Origin: Patescibacteria group bacterium | GTDB taxonomy: Bacteria > Patescibacteriota > Minisyncoccia > Phycocordibacterales > UBA918 | Direction: 5' to 3' | Assembly (NCBI GenBank): GCA_019750255.1 | Contig: JAIEOU010000005.1 | Coordinates: forward strand, 14,078 to 78,077 | Length of the DNA stretch: 64,000 nucleotides | Shown here: one piece after another, positions 40,246 to 64,000 of the stretch | Position numbering within the stretch: position 1 is the stretch's first letter | Layout: each line of letters starts with the position of its first letter | Position numbers and translations under genes: made by a program | The notes under the pieces: model-generated | What the model saw: only the letters and a program-made list of their open reading frames with translations | Told to the model about the DNA's origin: nothing | Database searches by the model: none

Positions 40246-40605
40246 TTATTTTTTTGCGTGACTGCGGCAGCGGCCACTGATAGATACCTCAAGGTCGCTA
40301 ATGATAAAACCGGGTAGCGAAAACTCCTTCGCCAGTTCGGCGTCGTTCGTCGTAAAGTGGATAACCTTTCCACACTCCGTACATACCGCATGGTGATGGG
40401 GTTCGTGCTGCACTTCAAAAAACGCCTCATCTCCCGCTAGGTGAACCTTTTTAACCGCTGACTCTGCCACGAGGTAGTCAAGGGCGCGGTAGATGGTAAC
40501 GAGGTTGATGTGGGGGAGGGCGCTATGGAGGGCGCTCGCTGAAAGTGCCTCACGAGAGTGGGTGAGGTAATCGAGGATTTCTTTTCGATGGGTAGTAAGT
40601 CTCAT
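40246..40605 (-). CDS. zur: Fur-family metalloregulator (Zur-like by genomic context)
   Basis: The ORF is trimmed to Met MRLTTHRKEILDYL. It has a winged helix plus HEPHHHAVCTECG and CxxC metal sites. Adjacent to the ZIP/COG0523 locus. Confidence 0.7.
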   Translation of the reverse strand: MRLTTHRKEILDYLTHSREALSASALHSALPHINLVTIYRALDYLVAESAVKKVHLAGDEAFFEVQHEPHHHAVCTECGKVIHFTTNDAELAKEFSLPGFIISDLEVSISGRCRSHAKK

Positions 40606-40878
40606 GAGTGTTTCCTGGTGGTTGTAGCCCGTCGCTTCCGCTCGCAGCGCAGACACAGTGTTACTAAGGTGAGGCGCGCACCGAGATATATGGTCAAGTC
40701 TCCTAATAGAAGGCTTATGGTGCCACGTGTCATCAAGAGGCTGTAATGGGTGCTCGGTAGTCCACACACAGTGCGCATAGGTAGATGATACAAAAGATTT
40801 AGGGATTTTAATAGTTCTAGTACTTCGATATAAAAAAGTGGGTGCGCGTCCATAGAGGTTGGCGCGCACCCGACTCGT

Positions 40879-41835
40879 TCAGACGCTTTCTGCGATGAAT
40901 CGACCCCTCGGTTTTAGGAGGGCCTGAATGGCGGCCGATTCCTCGGAGATGCCGTAGGCGAAGGGCAGGCAGTCTTCTTGTAGCTTCCAGGTCTCAGCCA
41001 GGAGATGGGTGAGCAGACTAGCAGTCATTCCGGCAACGTTTGATCGGGCCGGAGAAAATGCCATGGTCGGTGTACTGCAGGCCTCCACGGACACGAGACT
41101 GCAGTTGCAGTCGCAGTTGTGGTTGAGGACCATCCCGGTACGTTGCTGGAACACCGACTGCACATGGAGCATGAACGTATAGACCAGGCCAGCAGCGTGG
41201 AGGCAGCTATCGACGATGGTGTAGTGGGCTGGCAGTTTCCCACCACCCGCTTCGCGAAGAATCGACTGCTCTTCGGTAGGGTTTTCGCGCAAAGCGATGT
41301 GTGCGAACGAATGCCAGACGATTGAGGGCACTCGATCCCCATAAAAATCTGCGAGTTCGTCGAGGGCTGCCAGGACTTGCCTTGAGAGGGGGTTCGTGGC
41401 GTTGGGGTAGCTCGCAGTATCGAACCGCACTGCAAAACTGTGCCCGATGACGGCCAGGGTCGCCTGGGCGTTCGCTGTCCGGCCACGCTGTGCAGCGTAG
41501 GCTGCATGGGCACGGGCCCGCTCCACAAGATCGGGGTAAAAACCCTTGGCTTCGAGTTCCTGCCACTCGGGCGGCAGGCTGGCTGCGGCGCGGTCCTCTT
41601 TCTGTAGGAAGATATAGACCGGCTTGATGGTCTCACTGCGTTTACGCAGGTCGCACTTGATGCACATTCGTTTTGGTCTCCGCAAAGAACGGTTGAAGAA
41701 CAACTGGCACGTTGCCAGCCCGCTGTGCACGATGATTATCATGAACGGTGGGCTGGGAACGTACTTACGCGCGTGCTTGTAGGCGAGCTGCTTCAAATTT
41801 TTGCACCCGAGCCAGTCCATTTCCTGTAGGTGCAT
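40879..41835 (-). CDS. Hypothetical Cys-cluster protein (in the putative zinc regulon operon)
   Basis: 318-aa ORF containing CIKCDLRK and HNCDCNC clusters. Overlaps the upstream ATPase by 71 nt, so the true start is probably an internal Met. Confidence 0.4.
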   Translation of the reverse strand: MHLQEMDWLGCKNLKQLAYKHARKYVPSPPFMIIIVHSGLATCQLFFNRSLRRPKRMCIKCDLRKRSETIKPVYIFLQKEDRAAASLPPEWQELEAKGFYPDLVERARAHAAYAAQRGRTANAQATLAVIGHSFAVRFDTASYPNATNPLSRQVLAALDELADFYGDRVPSIVWHSFAHIALRENPTEEQSILREAGGGKLPAHYTIVDSCLHAAGLVYTFMLHVQSVFQQRTGMVLNHNCDCNCSLVSVEACSTPTMAFSPARSNVAGMTASLLTHLLAETWKLQEDCLPFAYGISEESAAIQALLKPRGRFIAESV

Positions 41836-42601
41836 GTTTTCTGATATTTTCTAGCGCTATGGCCATGGCTTCCGTGGTGGCAGCGTTTAATTGTGTGCTA
41901 TCGGCATGGCGTATACCCTCGTCATTTGGAATGGTGCCAATAATAGGTAATGAAAGGGTCGGAAGAGTATCGGAGGCACTGTGCTTGTTGATAAGTGCAA
42001 AGATAGGAAGCTGAGTATGAAGAGCGATGCGTGCTACTTCATTCGCGACACGAATACTGTTTGGGTGATTCTCGATTACCGTAACAATAGCATCAACACC
42101 ATTAAAGAGGCCAAAATTCATCATGTCTACTCCAGCTACCCCGTCAACTATCAGTGATTCCTGTGCTGCTAGGTGTAGTAATGGTAAGTAGAACTTGAGT
42201 GGCGCACTATGACCATGGGCACATTTTCCAGAGAAAAGAATATCTTCGGCCCCGAGACCGACGACAATTAGGTCGGTAGTATTGTTGATGGCGATAGTGA
42301 TACTGCGGGTAAAATCATCTTTGGGGTTGAGGGTGAAGGCGGGTAAGGTGCGACCATCAAGTACAATGTCGCTCCAACGTGCAGAGGCAGACTGTCGGAC
42401 AGCGACAAGAAATTCCGGGTGTGAGCGGTGCAGAGTAGGAGTTTGTTCGGAAACGGCAGCTCCCAGATTATGGGCTAGGTCCATATTATGGTCGGCGTCA
42501 ATTAAGAGGACGCGCTCATTGTCTCTATGTAGTACGGAATAAGCGAGCCAAGCAAGGCTACTTTTACCACTACCACCCTTGCCGATAAACGCTATTTTCA
42601 T
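41765..42601 (-). CDS. P-loop ATPase of the MinD/ParA/CooC family
   Basis: N-terminal KIAFIGKGGSGKSS deviant Walker A. About 278 aa. Confidence 0.65.
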   Translation of the reverse strand: MKIAFIGKGGSGKSSLAWLAYSVLHRDNERVLLIDADHNMDLAHNLGAAVSEQTPTLHRSHPEFLVAVRQSASARWSDIVLDGRTLPAFTLNPKDDFTRSITIAINNTTDLIVVGLGAEDILFSGKCAHGHSAPLKFYLPLLHLAAQESLIVDGVAGVDMMNFGLFNGVDAIVTVIENHPNSIRVANEVARIALHTQLPIFALINKHSASDTLPTLSLPIIGTIPNDEGIRHADSTQLNAATTEAMAIALENIRKHAPTGNGLARVQKFEAARLQARA

Positions 42602-42604
42602 AAC

Positions 42605-42619
42605 TGCAAATGATTTGCA
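42605..42619. promoter_or_regulatory. Candidate Zur/Fur box 1 (15-bp palindrome TGCAAATGATTTGCA)
   Basis: Perfect 7-1-7 palindrome in the divergent intergenic region between the CooC-like gene and the ZIP transporter. Confidence 0.55.
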
Positions 42620-42642
42620 TTATAGCGGGAACTAAGATAAAA

Positions 42643-42657
42643 TGCAAATCATTTGCA
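42643..42657. promoter_or_regulatory. Candidate Zur/Fur box 2 (TGCAAATCATTTGCA)
   Basis: Second copy of the same palindrome, 17 nt upstream of the ZIP start. Confidence 0.55.
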
Positions 42658-42673
42658 AATTTAAATAATACCT

Positions 42674-43579
42674 ATGTTAATTGAGATCTTGATTGCGGCG
42701 TTTAGTATCATGCTCGCATCGCTTGTGGGTGTCCTTTTCCTCTCGAGTGTAGCCCAGCAGTTCCTTAATGAGCGCCTCTCATACCTGGTGGCCTTTTCGG
42801 CGGGTGTCTTCTTGGTAACCGCAGGGGCTCTCGCGCTTGAAGTTTTTCATATTTACGAGACGGCACTGTGGTGGGGTCTTGGACTTATTATCGGCGGCTA
42901 TGTCCTCGGTTGGGTACTACAGGTGCTTTTGCCTGAATCCCACCATCATCATGATCCAGCGTGTGGTCATGGTCACGGTAAAGGTGCCCGTAAGCTCATG
43001 GTTGGTGATGCCATTCATAATATTGGAGACGGTATTATTTTGGTCCCCGCCTTCCTCGCTTCTCCCGCTATCGGCATTGCGGTGACGATCTCAATTTTGA
43101 TTCACGAAGCCCTACAAGAAATATCTGAATTCTTCGTGTTGAAGCAAGCGGGCTATAGCACCAAGCGAGCTTTGGCAATAAATTTTGGTATTTCCAGCAC
43201 CATTTTAATTGGTGTTGGGCTTTCGTATTTTGCCCTCGCAACACTTAACCTCGAGGGCGTGTTACTTGCTCTTAGTGCCGGATTTTTCCTCCACGTTGTG
43301 GTCCACGATCTTCTTCCGAAGCGGTCACAGCATGAATCATTTGGCGACTTTCTGAAGCACATGGTGGTGGTCGCGTGCGGACTTGCCCTCATGGCCGCGG
43401 TCAACAATGTCCTGGGAGATTCGCACGTACATGGTGATTCACATGATCATGGTGAAGCGCACGACCCTGAGCATCACGGTGCGCACGAAGGCACTCCAGG
43501 GGGAGCTGTGGTCCCAAAGCCAGCTGAGGAACATCATCATGGTGAGGGGTCTGATCATCATCACGAAGCTCCGCACTAG
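42674..43579 (+). CDS. zupT: ZIP family zinc transporter (ZupT-like) with His-rich loops
   Basis: Eight TM segments. HHHHDPACGHGHG loop and a C-terminal His-rich tail (HVHGDSHDHGEAHDPEHHGAHEG...HHHGEGSDHHHEAPH). Confidence 0.8.
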   Translation: MLIEILIAAFSIMLASLVGVLFLSSVAQQFLNERLSYLVAFSAGVFLVTAGALALEVFHIYETALWWGLGLIIGGYVLGWVLQVLLPESHHHHDPACGHGHGKGARKLMVGDAIHNIGDGIILVPAFLASPAIGIAVTISILIHEALQEISEFFVLKQAGYSTKRALAINFGISSTILIGVGLSYFALATLNLEGVLLALSAGFFLHVVVHDLLPKRSQHESFGDFLKHMVVVACGLALMAAVNNVLGDSHVHGDSHDHGEAHDPEHHGAHEGTPGGAVVPKPAEEHHHGEGSDHHHEAPH

Positions 43580-43585
43580 ATTCAC

Positions 43586-44644
43586 ATGAGTAATCCAGCT
43601 CCAGTTCCAGTAACAGTTCTCTCGGGTTTTTTGGGTGCAGGGAAAACCACGCTCTTAAATGCCTTGTTAAAAAATCGTGATGGTCTACGCCTGGCGGTGA
43701 TTGTGAACGATATGAGTGAGGTAAATATTGATGCCGAGTTAGTGGCGCGCGGAGAAGCCGCGTTTGACCGAACAGAGGAACGCTTGGTTGAGATGAGTAA
43801 CGGATGCATTTGTTGTACCCTGCGCGAGGATTTGTTACTAGAGGTTAGGGCGCTTGCTGCCGAGGGGCGATTTGATGCCATTGTCATTGAATCAAGTGGT
43901 ATCTCAGAACCACTTCCGGTCGCTGAAACCTTTACCTTTACCGACGAAGCCGGGCAGACACTCAATGAGGTCGCGCGACTTGATACGATGGTGACGGTCG
44001 TAGACGTAGCGCAGTTTTTAGACCTCTACCGTAGTAATGCTACTTTGGCTGATCAGGGTCAGGGTACAAGCGACACCGACGAGCGGACTATCGTACATCT
44101 TCTTACCGACCAGATTGAATTTGCCGACACCATTGTACTTTCCAAAGCTGATTTGGTTGCAGAGGAGAGGCTGGTTGAGCTACGAGCATTTGTTACTCGA
44201 CTTAATCCGGGCGCCCGTATCTTGGTTTCGGCTCACGGAATTGTACCGATTAAAGAACTCATCAACACGGGTCGTTTTAATTTTGAGTCGGCAGCGAGTA
44301 ATCCTGGGTGGCTAAAGGAGCTGCGCGGAGAACACCAGCCCGAAACCGAAGAGTATGGTATTTCTAGCTTTGTGTACACAGCACACAAGCCCTTTGACCG
44401 AAGCCGGCTGACGTCCCTGCTCGAAGCAGGAGTGTTTGCGTCGGTATTGCGCTCAAAAGGGTTTGCTTGGTTTGCTGACCGGCCCAAAGTTGCACACGTG
44501 TGGTCACAAGCAGGCAATATAATTAATCTTGACCCGTACGGTAGTTGGACTAGCGAAACCCCCGAGCAGAAGATTGTCTTTATTGGGCAACGTCTTAAGC
44601 GAGAAGAAATTGAAAAGTCATTGTCGAGCGCGCTTGTTGGGTAG
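43586..44644 (+). CDS. COG0523 CobW/ZigA-like GTPase (putative zinc metallochaperone)
   Basis: P-loop GFLGAGKTT, GCICCT CxCC metal motif and a CobW C-terminal domain. Confidence 0.8.
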   Translation: MSNPAPVPVTVLSGFLGAGKTTLLNALLKNRDGLRLAVIVNDMSEVNIDAELVARGEAAFDRTEERLVEMSNGCICCTLREDLLLEVRALAAEGRFDAIVIESSGISEPLPVAETFTFTDEAGQTLNEVARLDTMVTVVDVAQFLDLYRSNATLADQGQGTSDTDERTIVHLLTDQIEFADTIVLSKADLVAEERLVELRAFVTRLNPGARILVSAHGIVPIKELINTGRFNFESAASNPGWLKELRGEHQPETEEYGISSFVYTAHKPFDRSRLTSLLEAGVFASVLRSKGFAWFADRPKVAHVWSQAGNIINLDPYGSWTSETPEQKIVFIGQRLKREEIEKSLSSALVG

Positions 44645-45428: not shown

Positions 45429-45436
45429 AGGCAAGT

Positions 45437-45726
45437 ATGATGATCGCCCTTTCTTCGTAAGAAGGTGGGGAGGAAAGTCCGAACACGTCCTGGGTGACCA
45501 GGAGTAGGGTAGCGGGTAACCCCCGTCCGCCGCGAGGCGCGAGGTGCGAACAGAGACGCCCAAAGTGAAAATGATGGGCTTCCTTCGTAAGAAGGAAGAG
45601 TCGTCACGGTAACGTGTCGGGTGAAACGGCAAAATCCTTACCTACGTGCAAGGCCGTGCTATCGGTAACGGCGGCAACGCCCGAACTGATAGAGAGCCGC
45701 TTGAGGGTGATGGTAACATCATTCCT
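45437..45726 (+). ncRNA. rnpB: RNase P RNA (bacterial type A, reduced ~290 nt)
   Basis: Universal P4 motif GGAGGAAAGTCCG. AGGGTAgCGGGTAACCCC, ACAGAGA, GGGTGAAACGG, and AGAGCCGCTTGA (the P4 3' strand) are also present. The 5' ATGATG pairs with the 3' CATCAT as P1. Confidence 0.8.
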
Positions 45727-45780
45727 AGGTATATGATCATCCTGTACGCATGTGCAGACAGAATTCGGCTTATATACATG

Positions 45781-45815
45781 AAACGCTGCGCCACTTAAGG
45801 CGCGGCGTTTCTTTT
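45781..45815 (+). terminator. Rho-independent terminator after rnpB
   Basis: aaacgctgcgcc-acttaa-ggcgcggcgtttctttt. Confidence 0.75.
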
Positions 45816-62881: not shown

Positions 62882-64000
62882 TTGCATACGGCTGAGCTTG
62901 AATATGCGACCTACTCCCTCGCTACCGGTGAGTCGGGTGGTTCAGTCATTCCTGCTTCGTGCGATTCAAATCCAAGGGAGGCACACAGAGCGGGGGACTT
63001 AGATGGTTGTCTTAATTGGATACCTTATTGCACCGGTGCAGAAGGAGGGGCGAATGATTGGCAGTGGTGGGAATATACCGATTCTGATCCTTTTGTGGGA
63101 CGTCAGACAAGATTTTTAAGGGCGGGTGACGGCTCTTGTGTGCCCCCGACTGTTGTAAACTGGACCACGTACTGCACTGGTGGCGCTGATGTTAATGGTA
63201 ATAATTGGCAGTGGTGGCAATACTCTGATCAGCAACCTCCTCAGTATAGATTTTTGAGGCCAGGGGATGGGTCGTGTGCCCCCGGTCCGCGGGGTGACGT
63301 GCCATGGATTAACGCTTCATGTTACAACGCGCAAAATAACATGTACTTTGATTGGGGTCCCGTTGTGGCTGATCGGTACGGCTTAAGCTTTTCGGGCTTA
63401 TCAGCTGGTGAGTGTGCGGCGATGGGTTGGACATATGAAACGGTAGGAAATTCTTGCTACCACCTTAACTGGCCGACTGCGTGGACCGCGGTTTCTTTGG
63501 GAGCAGGAGGGTCATATAATCTTGGCAACATGACCGGACGTACGGTAAGTCTATCAGTTATTGCTGGATTACCCTGGGGTAACTGGACTGGAAGGTGGTT
63601 AACCTGCCGTCCGCCGACAGTTGCTCCTACTGGCCTCGCGCGTACCTGTGGGGCTGGGGGAACTAGCGCCACCATTACCTGGAATCAAGTACCGGGGGCG
63701 GTCCGTTATCTACCCCGCCTGCAAGGAATGACTCCCGCTCAGTGTGCAGCTAATGGGCTGACTTTATGGACTGATAACGTTACGTGCTACCACAATAACT
63801 GGACGTCTACATCCCTGACGGTAGCAATAACTCCTGATACCTGGCACAGCTTTTGGGTGCACGCCGGTGATTCGGTGGGTGATGCTAGTGTGGGACTGGG
63901 CTTCTCGTGCCCGTCGACGGCACCACCCATACCACCACCTACAGCGGTTACTGGGTCATGCAGTGCTGATGGTCGAACAGGTACGTTTTCGTGGACCGCT
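62882..64000 (+). CDS. Secreted Cys/Trp-rich repeat protein, 3'-partial (runs off the window)
   Basis: An open frame with codon starts at positions 2 mod 3 runs from the stop at 62837-62839 to the window end. Repeated modules C..G(A)DGSC.P and C..CY..NNWT are present. There is no in-frame ATG, so a TTG at 62882 or a join to an upstream short ORF across a poly-T tract is possible. Confidence 0.5.
   Translation, partial: MHTAELEYATYSLATGESGGSVIPASCDSNPREAHRAGDLDGCLNWIPYCTGAEGGANDWQWWEYTDSDPFVGRQTRFLRAGDGSCVPPTVVNWTTYCTGGADVNGNNWQWWQYSDQQPPQYRFLRPGDGSCAPGPRGDVPWINASCYNAQNNMYFDWGPVVADRYGLSFSGLSAGECAAMGWTYETVGNSCYHLNWPTAWTAVSLGAGGSYNLGNMTGRTVSLSVIAGLPWGNWTGRWLTCRPPTVAPTGLARTCGAGGTSATITWNQVPGAVRYLPRLQGMTPAQCAANGLTLWTDNVTCYHNNWTSTSLTVAITPDTWHSFWVHAGDSVGDASVGLGFSCPSTAPPIPPPTAVTGSCSADGRTGTFSWTA

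What the first reader, a model, noticed from the sequence alone, without database searches (positions are those of the whole stretch)
40246..44644. Divergent zinc-homeostasis locus with twin 15-bp palindromic operator candidates
The minus-strand operon runs CooC/MinD-like ATPase, then a Cys-cluster hypothetical, then a Fur-family regulator. It diverges from a plus-strand operon carrying a His-rich ZIP transporter and a COG0523 (CobW/ZigA-like) GTPase. The 72-nt spacer between them holds two perfect 7-1-7 palindromes, TGCAAATGATTTGCA (42605-42619) and its complement-symmetric twin (42643-42657). This resembles Zur boxes (AT-rich core ATGAT/ATCAT), so the regulator is probably Zur autoregulating a zinc-limitation regulon. 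The 318-aa Cys-cluster protein and the CooC-like ATPase are not standard Zur-regulon members and may be new zinc-economy components.
Basis: partly seen in the sequence, partly recalled or inferred. Interest (0 to 1): 0.55.

Follow-up and report, generated by a model that had tools for sequence, protein, structure and literature searches.

The report
Metal-sensing switch with new chaperone genes
Two identical 15-base palindromes between two back-to-back operons of a Patescibacteria (CPR) genome are very probably the binding sites of the Fur-family metal repressor encoded next door, and the same switch recurs across this phylum in front of an uncharacterised CooC-like ATPase and its cysteine-rich partner, which look like a new metal-handling system.

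Summary
Two perfect 7-1-7 palindromes (42605-42619, 42643-42657) lie in the 72-nt spacer between the ATPase operon (-) and the ZIP/COG0523 operon (+), and they are the only such sites in the window.

They are real operators. The core TGCAA-N5-TTGCA occurs 41 times in 552 kb of 61 related CPR loci, against about 1 expected. Almost all copies sit just upstream of the ATPase, COG0523, ZIP or Fur genes, often as a pair 37-46 bp apart. Each box overlaps the -35 of one divergent promoter and the -10/+1 of the other.

"Zur" is only partly supported. The regulon content (ZIP, ZigA-like COG0523) points to zinc. However, the 119-aa regulator lacks the Cys4 structural site and the thiolate sensory ligand of known Zurs, it scores higher against PerR and Fur models, and its box core equals the Nur (nickel) box.

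The ATPase is closest to CooC. It has an invariant C-x-H where CooC has its metal-binding C-x-C. It is always followed by a Cys-cluster protein, and the 262-aa "Cys-cluster hypothetical" is one such partner. That partner also travels with a Fur gene and the same box outside CPR.

Verdict: a new variant of a known kind.

The parts
40246..40605 (-). Short Fur-family regulator, 119 aa. It carries an HHH-x-x-C-x-x-C motif, has C-R-S-H in place of the second CxxC, and has no other Cys.
   Evidence: PF01475, 66 bits. Best NCBIfam hit is PerR at 57 bits versus Zur at 30 bits, all far below cut-offs. Best PDB hit is BsPerR 2fe3 at 43 bits versus MtZur at 33.5 bits. It belongs to a conserved short subgroup seen in L006, L008, L044, L048, L051, L057 and L061.
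40602..40778 (-). Small ORF of 58 aa (MRTVCGLPSTH...). Its stop overlaps the regulator's ATG (ATGA). It is a member of a conserved M-C-x-x-C-G-L-P-x-x-H single-TM peptide family. In this copy Cys2 is Arg.
   Evidence: Homologues lie next to the short Fur genes in L006, L008, L044, L048 and L049. Sequence read.
40805..40834 (-). Weak sigma-70-like match (TTTATA-18-TAAAAT) in the 100-nt gap upstream of the small ORF. It is a possible internal, box-free promoter for the small ORF and the regulator.
   Evidence: 9 of 12 matches. The scan as a whole was at chance level, so this is only a lead.
40879..41667 (-). Cys-cluster protein 'CysP', 262 aa. It has an N-terminal M-C-x-x-C, an invariant H-N-C-D-C-x-C-S hairpin and several invariant His/Glu residues. 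No Pfam or NCBIfam family matches.
   Evidence: 15 homologues among 5.8e9 clusters. 71 representatives among 1.84e9. Alignment A2. AF2 model with pLDDT 82.5. No PDB fold match. GC is 0.58-0.60 versus about 0.50 in the surroundings.
41765..42601 (-). CooC-like SIMIBI ATPase, 278 aa. It has the deviant Walker A GKGGSGKS, and invariant DADHNMDL, C127-A-H129-G-H and DGVAGxDM motifs.
   Evidence: Pfam CbiA/ParA. Alignment A3. Best solved relative is CooC1 3kje at 68.6 bits. More than 317 homologues, mostly CPR.
42605..42619 (.). Operator box 1, TGCAAATGATTTGCA. It spans -18..-4 from the ATPase ATG, contains the -35 of the plus-strand promoter, and covers the -10 edge and +1 of the minus-strand promoter.
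   Evidence: The -18 position recurs in 9 loci, and 15 loci have a box at -16..-24.
42643..42657 (.). Operator box 2, TGCAAATCATTTGCA, the reverse complement of box 1. It lies 16 nt upstream of the ZIP ATG, contains the -35 of the minus-strand promoter, and covers the -10 edge and +1 of the plus-strand promoter.
42619..42648 (-). Predicted promoter of the ATPase operon: -35 TTTGCA (42648-42643), 18-nt spacer, -10 TATAAT (42624-42619). The leader is about 10 nt or less.
   Evidence: 10 of 12 matches, the best in the region.
42614..42643 (+). Predicted promoter of the ZIP/COG0523 operon: -35 TTTGCA (42614-42619), 18-nt spacer, -10 TAAAAT (42638-42643).
   Evidence: 9 of 12 matches.
42674..43579 (+). 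ZIP-family metal importer, 301 aa. It has a His-rich loop (SHHHHDPACGHGHG) and a His-rich C-terminal tail.
   Evidence: PF02535, 76 bits. ZupT model 36 bits, below its cut-off.
43586..44644 (+). COG0523 GTPase, 352 aa. It has Walker A GAGKTT and a CXCC motif (GCICCT), and starts 7 nt after the ZIP gene.
   Evidence: cobW 187 bits and CobW_C 84 bits. ZigA equivalog model 500 bits (cut-off 600) versus CobW 158 bits.

Best explanation
The 72-nt spacer is a mirror-symmetric, bidirectional control region.

Two copies of a Fur-family operator (consensus aTGCAAnTnAnTTGCAt) lie 38 bp apart centre to centre. Each box holds the -35 hexamer of one promoter and overlaps the -10/+1 of the opposite promoter. 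Two bound repressor dimers would therefore shut off both operons at once.

The repressor is the short Fur-family protein encoded last in the minus-strand operon, which gives negative autoregulation. When its co-repressor metal, most likely Zn(II), becomes scarce, it leaves the DNA and both operons are expressed. One operon encodes a ZIP importer and a ZigA-like COG0523 GTPase. The other encodes a CooC-like ATPase, a Cys/His-cluster partner protein, a small Cys-motif membrane peptide and the regulator itself.

The ATPase is inferred to be a nucleotide-dependent metallochaperone that dimerises around a metal held by its invariant C-x-H motif, which sits at the position of CooC's C-x-C. It is inferred to work with, or load, the Cys-cluster partner.

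Shown: the sequence anatomy, the conservation of the box, its positions and its gene partners. Inferred: repressor-box pairing, metal identity, and the chaperone function of the ATPase and its partner.
For: Boxes and geometry:
- The boxes and the dyad are as described.
- The promoter hexamers are nested in the boxes.
- Two boxes 37-38 bp apart are kept in the close relatives L006 and L008 despite point changes.

Enrichment and placement:
- The exact core occurs 41 times in 552 kb of 61 CPR loci, versus 0.95 expected (maximum 2 in 20 Markov shuffles).
- 38 of the 41 sites are intergenic and face ATPase, COG0523, ZIP, Fur or CysP genes.
- 35 of 61 loci have at least one box within 130 nt of the ATPase ATG, and 17 have at least two. 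The position mode is -18.
- Positions 7 and 9 of the box, which were not used to select sites, are T and A in 79% of sites.

Link to a Fur-family repressor:
- A Fur-family gene lies within 2.5 kb of the ATPase in 46 of 61 loci. One of Fur, ZIP or COG0523 is present in 52 of 61.
- Outside CPR, Fur and CysP are divergent neighbours with the same box between them (TGCGAATTATTTGCA in L001 and L005; two boxes in L214).
- Paired Zur boxes over -35 and -10 are known for Sc znuA and Bs yciC (PMC6103462).

Zinc:
- The COG0523 protein scores 500 bits against ZigA versus 158 against CobW.
- Zur-linked COG0523 subgroups are described in PMC2770081.

ATPase and partner:
- The ATPase is closest to CooC1, whose Cys112 and Cys114 bind Zn or Ni at the dimer interface (PMC6006190).
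- C127 and H129 are invariant.
- A Cys-motif protein always follows the ATPase.
Against: - The regulator fails the sequence hallmarks of known Zurs: it has no Cys4 site and no thiolate in a sensory site. It scores higher against PerR and Fur models.
- The box core is also the Nur-box core.
- No classic Zur targets (C-minus ribosomal paralogues, znuABC) were seen. However, only about 5 kb on each side of each ATPase gene, and one 64-kb window, could be examined.
- The core was used to find sites, so its own conservation is partly circular. Only the enrichment, the positions and the inner bases are independent.
- A possible internal promoter (40805-40834) could uncouple the regulator from autoregulation.
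- There is no experimental evidence for any step.
Confidence: 0.6

Rival explanations
1. The architecture is the same, but the effector metal is not zinc. The regulator could be a Nur-like nickel sensor, or a Fe/Mn-sensing Fur, and the CooC-like ATPase with its Cys partners would traffic that metal. The ZIP protein would then act as a broad-range importer.
For: - The box core TGCAA-N5-TTGCA equals the core of the Nur box tTGCaa-N5-ttGCAA (PMC2691836).
- The ATPase's closest characterised relative is the Ni-insertase CooC.
- P-loop ATPase metallochaperones are so far known only for Ni (PMC9164220).
- An N-terminal Cys2 motif in the partners recalls the Ni-binding Cys2 of CooT (PMC6006190).
- The regulator's ligand set is all His/Glu, as in Fur and PerR, and it gives better PerR/Fur scores.
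Against: - The COG0523 gene is ZigA-like (500 bits) rather than CobW-like.
- No nik/cbi transporter, sodF/sodN, urease, hydrogenase, CODH, feo or siderophore genes are seen next to any box.
- The Nur Ni-site histidines (H70, H72, H126) are not conserved when positions are counted from the CxxC motif (versus PMC2691836).
- Inner box positions T7 and A9 are conserved, giving 7-1-7 character, unlike the 6-5-6 Nur box.
- 9 of the 11 specified positions of the S. coelicolor Zur box tGaNNatSatNNtCa match (PMC5472717).
Confidence: 0.25
2. The regulator is a PerR-type peroxide sensor, and the locus responds to oxidative stress rather than to metal supply.
For: The best NCBIfam and PDB hits are PerR proteins. 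In the alignment, Glu, His, His and Glu fall at the positions of the PerR ligands D85, H91, H93 and D104.
Against: - The scores are far below the family cut-offs (57 versus 200 bits).
- The residue at the position of PerR H37 is not His.
- The box differs from the Per box at the specificity positions.
- No catalase, peroxiredoxin or Dps genes lie near any box.
- All box-flanked genes are metal importers or NTPase chaperone-type genes.
Confidence: 0.05
3. The palindromes are operators, but the ATPase and the Cys-cluster partner are not metal-trafficking proteins. The ATPase could be, for example, a ParA/MinD-type positioning ATPase with an adaptor, or a redox/Fe-S protein pair, that merely shares the promoter.
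For: - The ATPase hits ParA, MinD and NifH models weakly.
- Neither partner family has any fold or family match.
- Homology among the partner families is only weakly supported.
Against: - The ATPase sits next to Fur, ZIP or COG0523 genes in 52 of 61 CPR loci, under the same box.
- It has an invariant Cys/His motif at the position where CooC has its metal site.
- Every partner carries a conserved Cys cluster.
- CysP travels with a Fur gene even without the ATPase.
Confidence: 0.1

Closest known systems
Zur regulons with paired Zur boxes (S. coelicolor znuA, B. subtilis yciC)
   Same: - A Fur-family repressor gene is linked to its targets.
- A 15-bp 7-1-7 AT-rich palindrome occurs in two copies covering -35 and -10.
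- The targets are a metal importer plus a COG0523 GTPase.
- 9 of the 11 specified positions of tGaNNatSatNNtCa match (PMC5472717, PMC6103462).
   Different: - The regulator has no Cys4 structural site and no Cys in a sensory site. It is 119 aa and is not closest to any Zur by score.
- The importer is a ZIP protein rather than ZnuABC.
- The regulon core includes a CooC-like ATPase and Cys-cluster proteins that are unknown in Zur regulons.
- The two boxes serve two divergent promoters symmetrically.
Nur (nickel-responsive Fur homologue) and the Nur box of Streptomyces coelicolor
   Same: The outer bases of the operator are identical (TGCAA ... TTGCA, 5 bases apart). The metal-site chemistry is His-rich and N/O only.
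   Different: - The Ni-site histidines are not conserved.
- The inner box bases are conserved (7-1-7 character).
- The targets are ZIP, COG0523 and the ATPase, not sodF or nik.
- The similarity score to Nur (3eyy, 28 bits) is lower than to PerR or Fur.
CooC (ATP-dependent Ni insertase of CO dehydrogenase; C. hydrogenoformans CooC1, PDB 3kje/3kji)
   Same: CooC1 is the best solved relative (68.6 bits). Both have the deviant Walker A with a signature lysine, the same length class, and a Cys-containing motif about 15 residues before the conserved DxxAG block, where CooC1 binds Zn or Ni at its dimer interface.
   Different: - The motif is C-A-H-G-H, not C-x-C.
- There is an extra invariant DADHNMDL motif.
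- No CODH or other Ni enzyme lies nearby.
- The gene sits under a Fur-family operator, next to ZIP and COG0523.
- Its partner is a Cys-cluster protein of unknown fold rather than CooT or CooJ.
COG0523 / ZigA-type Zn metallochaperone GTPases
   Same: The plus-strand GTPase has cobW and CobW_C domains, Walker A and CXCC motifs, and lies downstream of a metal importer under a Fur-family box, as Zur-regulated COG0523 genes do (PMC2770081).
   Different: It scores 500 bits, below the ZigA equivalog cut-off of 600, and matches only profile positions 1-323 of 390. In several CPR genomes it is co-transcribed with the CooC-like ATPase (L014-L016, L051, L061, L081).

Membership tests
Fur family (PF01475) | Winged-helix DNA-binding domain plus dimerisation domain matching the Fur profile above its gathering score | tested here: met
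   66.1 bits versus a cut-off of 23.1.
Zur | Structural Cys4 zinc site formed by two CxxC motifs | tested here: not met
   Only C-T-E-C is present. The second motif is C-R-S-H, and the protein has three Cys in all. The four Cys are described as well conserved among Zurs (PMC6103462).
Zur | Sensory site of N2OS type that includes an essential Cys (ScZur C79, EcZur C88) | tested here: not met
   Glu occupies the position 11 residues before the first CxxC, and there is no spare Cys anywhere (PMC6103462). All CPR relatives have Y-E at this position.
Zur | Closer in sequence to characterised Zurs than to other Fur subfamilies | tested here: not met
   NCBIfam: PerR 57, Fur 38, Zur 30 bits. PDB: PerR 43, Fur 38, MtZur 33.5, ScZur 27.6, EcZur 24.7 bits. 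The neighbours' regulators show the same pattern. No tree was built.
Zur | 7-1-7 (or similar) AT-rich palindromic operator overlapping the promoters of its targets | tested here: met
   Actual binding was not tested.
Zur | Regulon of zinc-uptake and zinc-sparing genes (importer, COG0523, C-minus ribosomal paralogues) | tested here: inconclusive
   ZIP and ZigA-like COG0523 are present under the box. No ribosomal paralogues or znuABC were seen, but only about 5 kb of flank per locus could be searched.
Zur | Zn(II)-dependent DNA binding and derepression on zinc depletion | not testable with these tools
   Needs EMSA or footprinting, and expression data.
Nur | 6-5-6 box tTGCaa-N5-ttGCAA | tested here: inconclusive
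   The core TGCAA-N5-TTGCA is identical. However, the flanking T/A of the hexamers is weak (T at position 0 in 35% of sites), and the inner positions 7 and 9 are conserved at 79% (PMC2691836).
Nur | Ni-site His70, His72 and His126 | tested here: not met
   Positions were counted from the first CxxC. The window protein has K and H at the H70/H72 positions and E at the H126 position. Relatives do not conserve them (PMC2691836). This was a positional comparison, not a structural alignment.
Nur | Targets sodF and nik transport genes | tested here: not met
   None were found next to any box in 61 loci.
PerR | Ligand set H37, D85, H91, H93, D104, and a regulon of peroxide-defence genes | tested here: not met
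   The H37 position is Ala/Glu, and D85 and D104 are Glu. No peroxide-defence genes lie near the boxes. The score is 57 bits versus a cut-off of 200.
CooC (Ni-insertase ATPase) | MinD-type deviant Walker A with signature Lys | tested here: met
   GKGGSGKS is invariant. CooC1 has GKGGVGKTT (PMC6006190).
CooC (Ni-insertase ATPase) | Strictly conserved C-x-C metal site at the dimer interface | tested here: not met
   The motif is replaced by an invariant C127-A-H129(-G-H) at the corresponding distance from the DxxAG block. The motif region itself was not aligned by HMMER.
CooC (Ni-insertase ATPase) | Genomic association with CO dehydrogenase / ACS genes | tested here: not met
   The neighbours are Fur, ZIP, COG0523 and Cys-cluster proteins.
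COG0523 | G3E GTPase domain with Walker A and CXCC, plus the CobW_C domain | tested here: met
   cobW 187 bits and CobW_C 84 bits. GAGKTT and GCICCT are in the translation. Features as defined in PMC2770081.
ZigA (NF038288 equivalog) | Score above the curated equivalog cut-off | tested here: not met
   500 bits versus 600. Profile positions 1-323 of 390 are matched.
ZIP transporters (PF02535) | Profile match above the gathering score | tested here: met
   76 bits versus 35.1.

The most novel reading that the evidence does not exclude
Patescibacteria carry a previously undescribed, phylum-wide metal-limitation regulon. Its core is not ZnuABC and ribosomal paralogues. Instead it is a new ATP-dependent metallochaperone: a CooC-like ATPase with an interfacial Cys/His site, working with interchangeable Cys-hairpin partner proteins. 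The 262-aa CysP is one such partner, and it is also mobile between phyla together with its own Fur gene and operator. The regulon is controlled by a new Fur subfamily that senses zinc without any thiolate ligand. This would be the first MinD/CooC-class ATPase dedicated to a metal other than nickel.
Probability: 0.35. Interest if true: 0.8.

Novelty: new variant of a known kind. Interest (0 to 1): 0.62.

Why it matters
CPR/Patescibacteria are a large, mostly uncultured part of bacterial diversity with tiny genomes. Almost nothing is known about how they regulate genes or manage metals.

This locus provides four things:
- A concrete, testable operator and repressor pair that is conserved across the phylum.
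- A compact example of one pair of operators controlling two divergent promoters symmetrically.
- Two or more uncharacterised protein families, the CooC-like C-x-H ATPase and its Cys-cluster partners. They have confident predicted structures with no known fold relatives, and their genomic context ties them to metal supply.
- A Fur subfamily whose sequence does not predict its metal.

If the ATPase proves to be a zinc (or other non-nickel) chaperone, it would extend nucleotide-dependent metal delivery beyond the G3E GTPases and CooC. The searchable literature returned no paper combining Patescibacteria or Candidate Phyla Radiation with COG0523 or zinc uptake regulator.

Tried and rejected
- Pfam and NCBIfam gave nothing for CysP, the 230-aa partner family, the small ORF, or the 115-129-aa membrane protein.
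- Remote homology between the three partner families is only weakly supported. hhalign gave P = 0.0019, 6.7e-4 and 0.055, and reciprocal HMM hits had E of about 1e-3 to 1e-4 in small databases. I therefore treat 'one superfamily' as a lead and not a result.
- Classifying the regulator by curated models or solved structures failed. All scores are far below the cut-offs.
- The metagenome-wide scan for the 14-base box returned 120 loci. Only about six have Fur or ZIP beside the box, and the rest look like chance or other organisms. No new regulon members were obtained.
- The weaker motif matches in the window are inside ORFs or a coding repeat.
- The Actinoplanes homologues of the ATPase gave no functional clue.
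- Rfam found no riboswitch in the locus. The miRNA-precursor hits on the spacer are artefacts of the dyad.
- The exact look-up of the 318-aa ORF found nothing, and cluster look-ups gave no organism names.
- I considered and rejected the idea that the 273-nt gap before the regulator gene is non-coding, because it holds the conserved small ORF.

Full report
**1. Observation**

TGCAAATGATTTGCA lies at 42605-42619 and its reverse complement TGCAAATCATTTGCA at 42643-42657. Both sit in the 72-nt spacer between the ATG of a minus-strand ATPase gene (42601) and the ATG of a plus-strand ZIP gene (42674).

They are the only exact matches to TGCAAATNATTTGCA in the 64 kb. The six further matches with three mismatches are at chance level (expected 3.8). 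Those I examined are inside long ORFs or in a coding repeat.

The two boxes belong to a larger dyad with 20-nt arms (42605-42624 and 42638-42657, 95% complementary).

**2. Genes**

On the minus strand, in order of transcription:
- A 278-aa MinD/ParA/CooC-type ATPase (41765-42601).
- The 'Cys-cluster' protein. Its real start is almost certainly MCIKCDL at 41667, giving 262 aa, because all homologues are 246-271 aa and the closest ones start MCI[KR]C.
- A 58-aa ORF (40602-40778) whose stop overlaps the next start codon (ATGA).
- A 119-aa Fur-family protein (40246-40605). The 207-aa ORF is an over-extension: PF01475 matches residues 89-182 of it.

On the plus strand:
- A His-rich ZIP transporter (42674-43579).
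- Seven bases later, a COG0523 GTPase (43586-44644) with Walker A and CXCC motifs. It scores 500 bits against NCBI's ZigA model (cut-off 600) and 158 bits against CobW.

The window comes from a Patescibacteria (CPR) MAG. The proteins are identical to NCBI entries K2Q16_02495 and K2Q16_02500.

**3. The boxes are conserved operators**

In the two closest syntenic relatives the spacer keeps two boxes at the same spacing although individual bases differ:
- L006: TGCAAATGACTTGCA and TGCAAATTACTTGCA, 37 bp apart.
- L008: TGCAAATCATTTGCA and TGCAAATGACTTTCA, 38 bp apart.

I then fetched 80 genomic loci encoding relatives of the ATPase. With the earlier loci, 61 of the loci in hand are from CPR genomes.

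Enrichment in these 552 kb:
- The core TGCAA-N5-TTGCA occurs 41 times, against 0.95 expected from first-order Markov shuffles (maximum 2 in 20 shuffles).
- Thirty-eight of the 41 sites are intergenic. They face the ATPase gene, a COG0523 gene that precedes the ATPase in the same operon (L014-L016, L051, L061, L081), a ZIP gene, a Fur gene, or a CysP gene.

Placement relative to the ATPase:
- Thirty-five of 61 loci have at least one box (at most one core mismatch) within 130 nt upstream of the ATPase ATG.
- Seventeen loci have two or more, with spacings clustering at 37-38 and 44-46 bp.
- The commonest position is -18 (box spanning -18 to -4), exactly as in the window.

The inner bases were not used to select sites, yet position 7 is T and position 9 is A in 79% of sites. 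The consensus is aTGCAAnTnAnTTGCAt, a 7-1-7 element with a strong outer core.

**4. Promoter geometry**

The consensus scan places two promoters:
- Minus strand: -35 TTTGCA at 42648-42643 (inside box 2) and -10 TATAAT at 42624-42619 (abutting box 1).
- Plus strand: -35 TTTGCA at 42614-42619 (inside box 1) and -10 TAAAAT at 42638-42643 (abutting box 2).

Each box is therefore the -35 region of one promoter and covers the start region of the other. The ATPase mRNA would have a leader of about ten bases or less. These hexamers are predictions.

The design is consistent with the fixed -18 position of the proximal box in other genomes. It is also consistent with the known use of paired Zur boxes over -35 and -10 in S. 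coelicolor znuA and B. subtilis yciC (PMC6103462).

**5. Who binds**

A Fur-family gene lies within 2.5 kb of the ATPase in 46 of 61 CPR loci, usually divergent and directly across the box. One of Fur, ZIP or COG0523 is present in 52 of 61.

Independent support comes from outside CPR. The rare CysP family sits divergently next to a Fur gene in unrelated genomes, with the same box between the two genes:
- L001 and L005: TGCGAATTATTTGCA.
- L214: two boxes.

The pairing of this Fur clade with this box is therefore well supported by comparative evidence, although no binding has been shown.

In the window's sub-lineage the operon order ATPase, partner, (small ORF), Fur recurs (L006, L008, L044, L051, L057, L061). 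Autoregulation is therefore likely. A weak promoter-like match at 40834-40805 leaves room for box-independent expression of the regulator.

**6. Is it Zur?**

By content the regulon looks like a zinc-limitation regulon, with a ZIP importer and a ZigA-like COG0523 (PMC2770081). The window boxes match 9 of the 11 specified positions of the S. coelicolor Zur box tGaNNatSatNNtCa (PMC5472717).

By sequence the regulator is not a recognisable Zur:
- It scores 57 bits against a PerR model, about 38 against Fur models and 30 against the Zur model, all far below the cut-offs. The regulators of the related loci behave the same way.
- Among solved structures the order is BsPerR 43, SpPerR 39, VcFur 38, MtZur 33.5, Nur 28, ScZur 27.6 and EcZur 24.7 bits.
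- It has only three cysteines (C-T-E-C and C-R-S-H), so the Cys4 structural site that is well conserved in Zurs is incomplete.
- The position of the essential sensory cysteine (ScZur C79, EcZur C88; PMC6103462) is Glu. All CPR relatives have Y-E there, followed by HHHH.

The conserved outer core of the box is identical to the core of the Nur box tTGCaa-N5-ttGCAA (PMC2691836). Against a Nur identity:
- The Ni-site histidines are not conserved by positional comparison.
- The inner box bases are conserved.
- No nickel genes were found near any box.

I conclude that this is a distinct Fur subfamily whose metal cannot be read from sequence. Zinc is the best inference from the target genes (about 0.6-0.65). 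Nickel or iron/manganese are live alternatives. PerR-type peroxide sensing is unlikely.

**7. The ATPase**

The family has more than 317 members, nearly all from Patescibacteria. It has these invariant motifs:
- GKGGSGKS, the MinD-type deviant Walker A with the signature lysine.
- DADHNMDL.
- C127-A-H129-G-H.
- DGVAGxDM.

Its best solved relative is the Ni-insertase CooC1 (3kje, 68.6 bits). CooC1 binds Zn or Ni at its dimer interface through Cys112 and Cys114 (PMC6006190).

The aligned C-terminal block starts at query position 144, equivalent to CooC1 position 129. This places the C-x-H motif where CooC1 has C-x-C. This is an inference from positions, because that segment itself was not aligned.

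A recent review lists nickel as the only metal known for P-loop ATPase metallochaperones (PMC9164220).

**8. The Cys-cluster protein and its relatives**

CysP has no Pfam or NCBIfam match. It has 15 relatives at E <= 1e-3 among 5.8 billion clusters and 71 representatives among 1.84 billion.

Invariant residues include H54, H157, H168, H183-N-C-D-C-x-C-S, H221 and E225. The AlphaFold model is confident (pLDDT 82.5, pTM 0.82). It is mostly helical, with the Cys cluster on a beta-hairpin, and it has no Foldseek match in the PDB.

Its DNA is richer in G+C (0.58-0.60) than the neighbourhood (about 0.50).

In other CPR genomes the slot directly downstream of the ATPase is filled by other Cys-motif proteins:
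- A 230-266-aa family starting M-C-x-x-C, with a CSCG or CDCGC cluster. It is present in 22 loci. One member begins MCIKCDLKK, like CysP. Its model has pLDDT 92.2 and again no PDB fold match.
- A 116-135-aa family with N-C-C. This family fills the slot in the closest syntenic relative L008.
- Smaller CCxxC and CGGCPPCC proteins.

Profile comparisons align the helix / beta-strand / Cys-cluster segments of these families with only weak scores (P = 0.0019 and 6.7e-4). Reciprocal HMM hits are marginal. A common origin is therefore a lead and not a result.

What is solid is the rule 'CooC-like ATPase followed by a Cys-cluster protein, under the Fur-type box'. It is also solid that CysP keeps company with a Fur gene and the same box even where the ATPase is absent. 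In those genomes it is followed by a 115-129-aa membrane protein with an L-x-C-G-S-C-F-T-Y-W-L motif.

The 58-aa ORF of the window belongs to a conserved M-C-x-x-C-G-L-P-x-x-H single-TM family that lies next to the short Fur genes. In the window its Cys2 is Arg and its hydrophobic segment carries charges, so this copy may be decaying.

**9. Mechanism proposed**

With the metal replete, two repressor dimers occupy the two boxes and exclude RNA polymerase from both promoters. When the metal, probably zinc, is scarce, both operons fire.
- The ZIP protein imports the metal.
- The COG0523 GTPase and the CooC-like ATPase, with its Cys/His-cluster partner, distribute or hold it.
- The regulator is resynthesised, resetting the switch.

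The steps concerning metal identity and protein function are inferences.

**10. Novelty and verdict**

The kind of system, a Fur-family repressor with palindromic operators in front of metal-uptake genes, is well known. The new elements are:
- The CPR-wide operator motif.
- A sensor subfamily that lacks the Zur hallmarks.
- The symmetric two-box, two-promoter design.
- The ATPase plus Cys-cluster partner module as a core regulon member.

Full-text searches combining Patescibacteria or Candidate Phyla Radiation with COG0523 or zinc uptake regulator returned nothing. A recent comprehensive review of metallostasis mentions MinD only as part of the SIMIBI class name.

I rate it a new variant of a known kind, with interest 0.62.

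Noticed in passing
window 45432-45784 (+): Bacterial RNase P RNA, class A (132 bits, above the gathering score). It lies just downstream of the DUF192 gene, and the ORFs listed over it are spurious.
   Followed up: partly
window 40602-40778 (-); L006 4314-4493; L008 7412-7576; L044 2213-2398; L048 6620-6784; L049 6298-6483: Conserved 54-61-aa single-TM peptide family starting M-C-x-x-C-G-L-P-x-x-H, always next to the short Fur genes. The window copy has Arg for Cys2 and charged residues in the hydrophobic segment, so it may be degenerating.
   Followed up: partly
L001 8813-9196; L005 6499-6888; L214 2205-2552: Outside CPR, the Fur / box / CysP unit is followed by a 115-129-aa membrane protein with the motif L-x-C-G-S-C-F-T-[YF]-W-L and a His-rich C-terminus. 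It has no Pfam family.
   Followed up: partly
window 40879-41700 versus flanks; L008 6917-7312: The CysP gene is 8-10 points richer in G+C than its neighbours. In the closest syntenic relative the same slot holds an unrelated-looking 131-aa N-C-C protein. This suggests partner genes are swapped, possibly by horizontal transfer.
   Followed up: partly
L048 5923-6177; L049 5923-6186; L031 5766-6173; L037 5775-6200; L081 5801-6274: Further small Cys-rich proteins occupy the slot after the ATPase: 84-87 aa with CGGCPPCC, and 135-157 aa with CCxxC.
   Followed up: no
window 42596-42666: The 53-bp dyad formed by the two boxes and the -10 elements gives sub-threshold Rfam hits to miRNA precursor models on both strands. 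This is an artefact of the hairpin potential.
   Followed up: yes
window about 62900-64000 (+): An ORF running off the window end contains a repeated coding unit, (N[DN]WQWW[EQ]Y...RFL[RK]xGDGSC). This explains two weak box-like matches at 63049 and 63196.
   Followed up: partly
L060, L063-L070, L072-L078, L080, L084, L090, L092 (Actinoplanes); L077, L085-L087 (archaea): Relatives of the ATPase carrying the DADHNMD and GKGGSGKS motifs also occur in Actinoplanes, where they are embedded in an ORF of about 500 aa, and in Bathyarchaeia and Syntrophoarchaeum. The Actinoplanes context (LacI, acyl-CoA dehydrogenase, aldehyde dehydrogenase) gave no clue.
   Followed up: partly
L016 3518-3802 (-); L081 3456-3740 (-); L054 1925-2446; L033 4411-4902 (-); L061 3104-3688 (-): Other genes face a box: DUF1653 (94 aa), a MauE-like membrane protein, a His-rich 163-aa membrane protein, and a 194-aa secreted protein. 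These are possible additional regulon members.
   Followed up: partly
L094-L213 (metagenome scan): Most exact matches to the 14-base box in metagenomes are not next to Fur or ZIP genes. Many come from a few sample series with similar GC. The box contains ATGCAAAT/ATTTGCAT, the eukaryotic octamer sequence (from my own knowledge), so some hits may be eukaryotic DNA.
   Followed up: no
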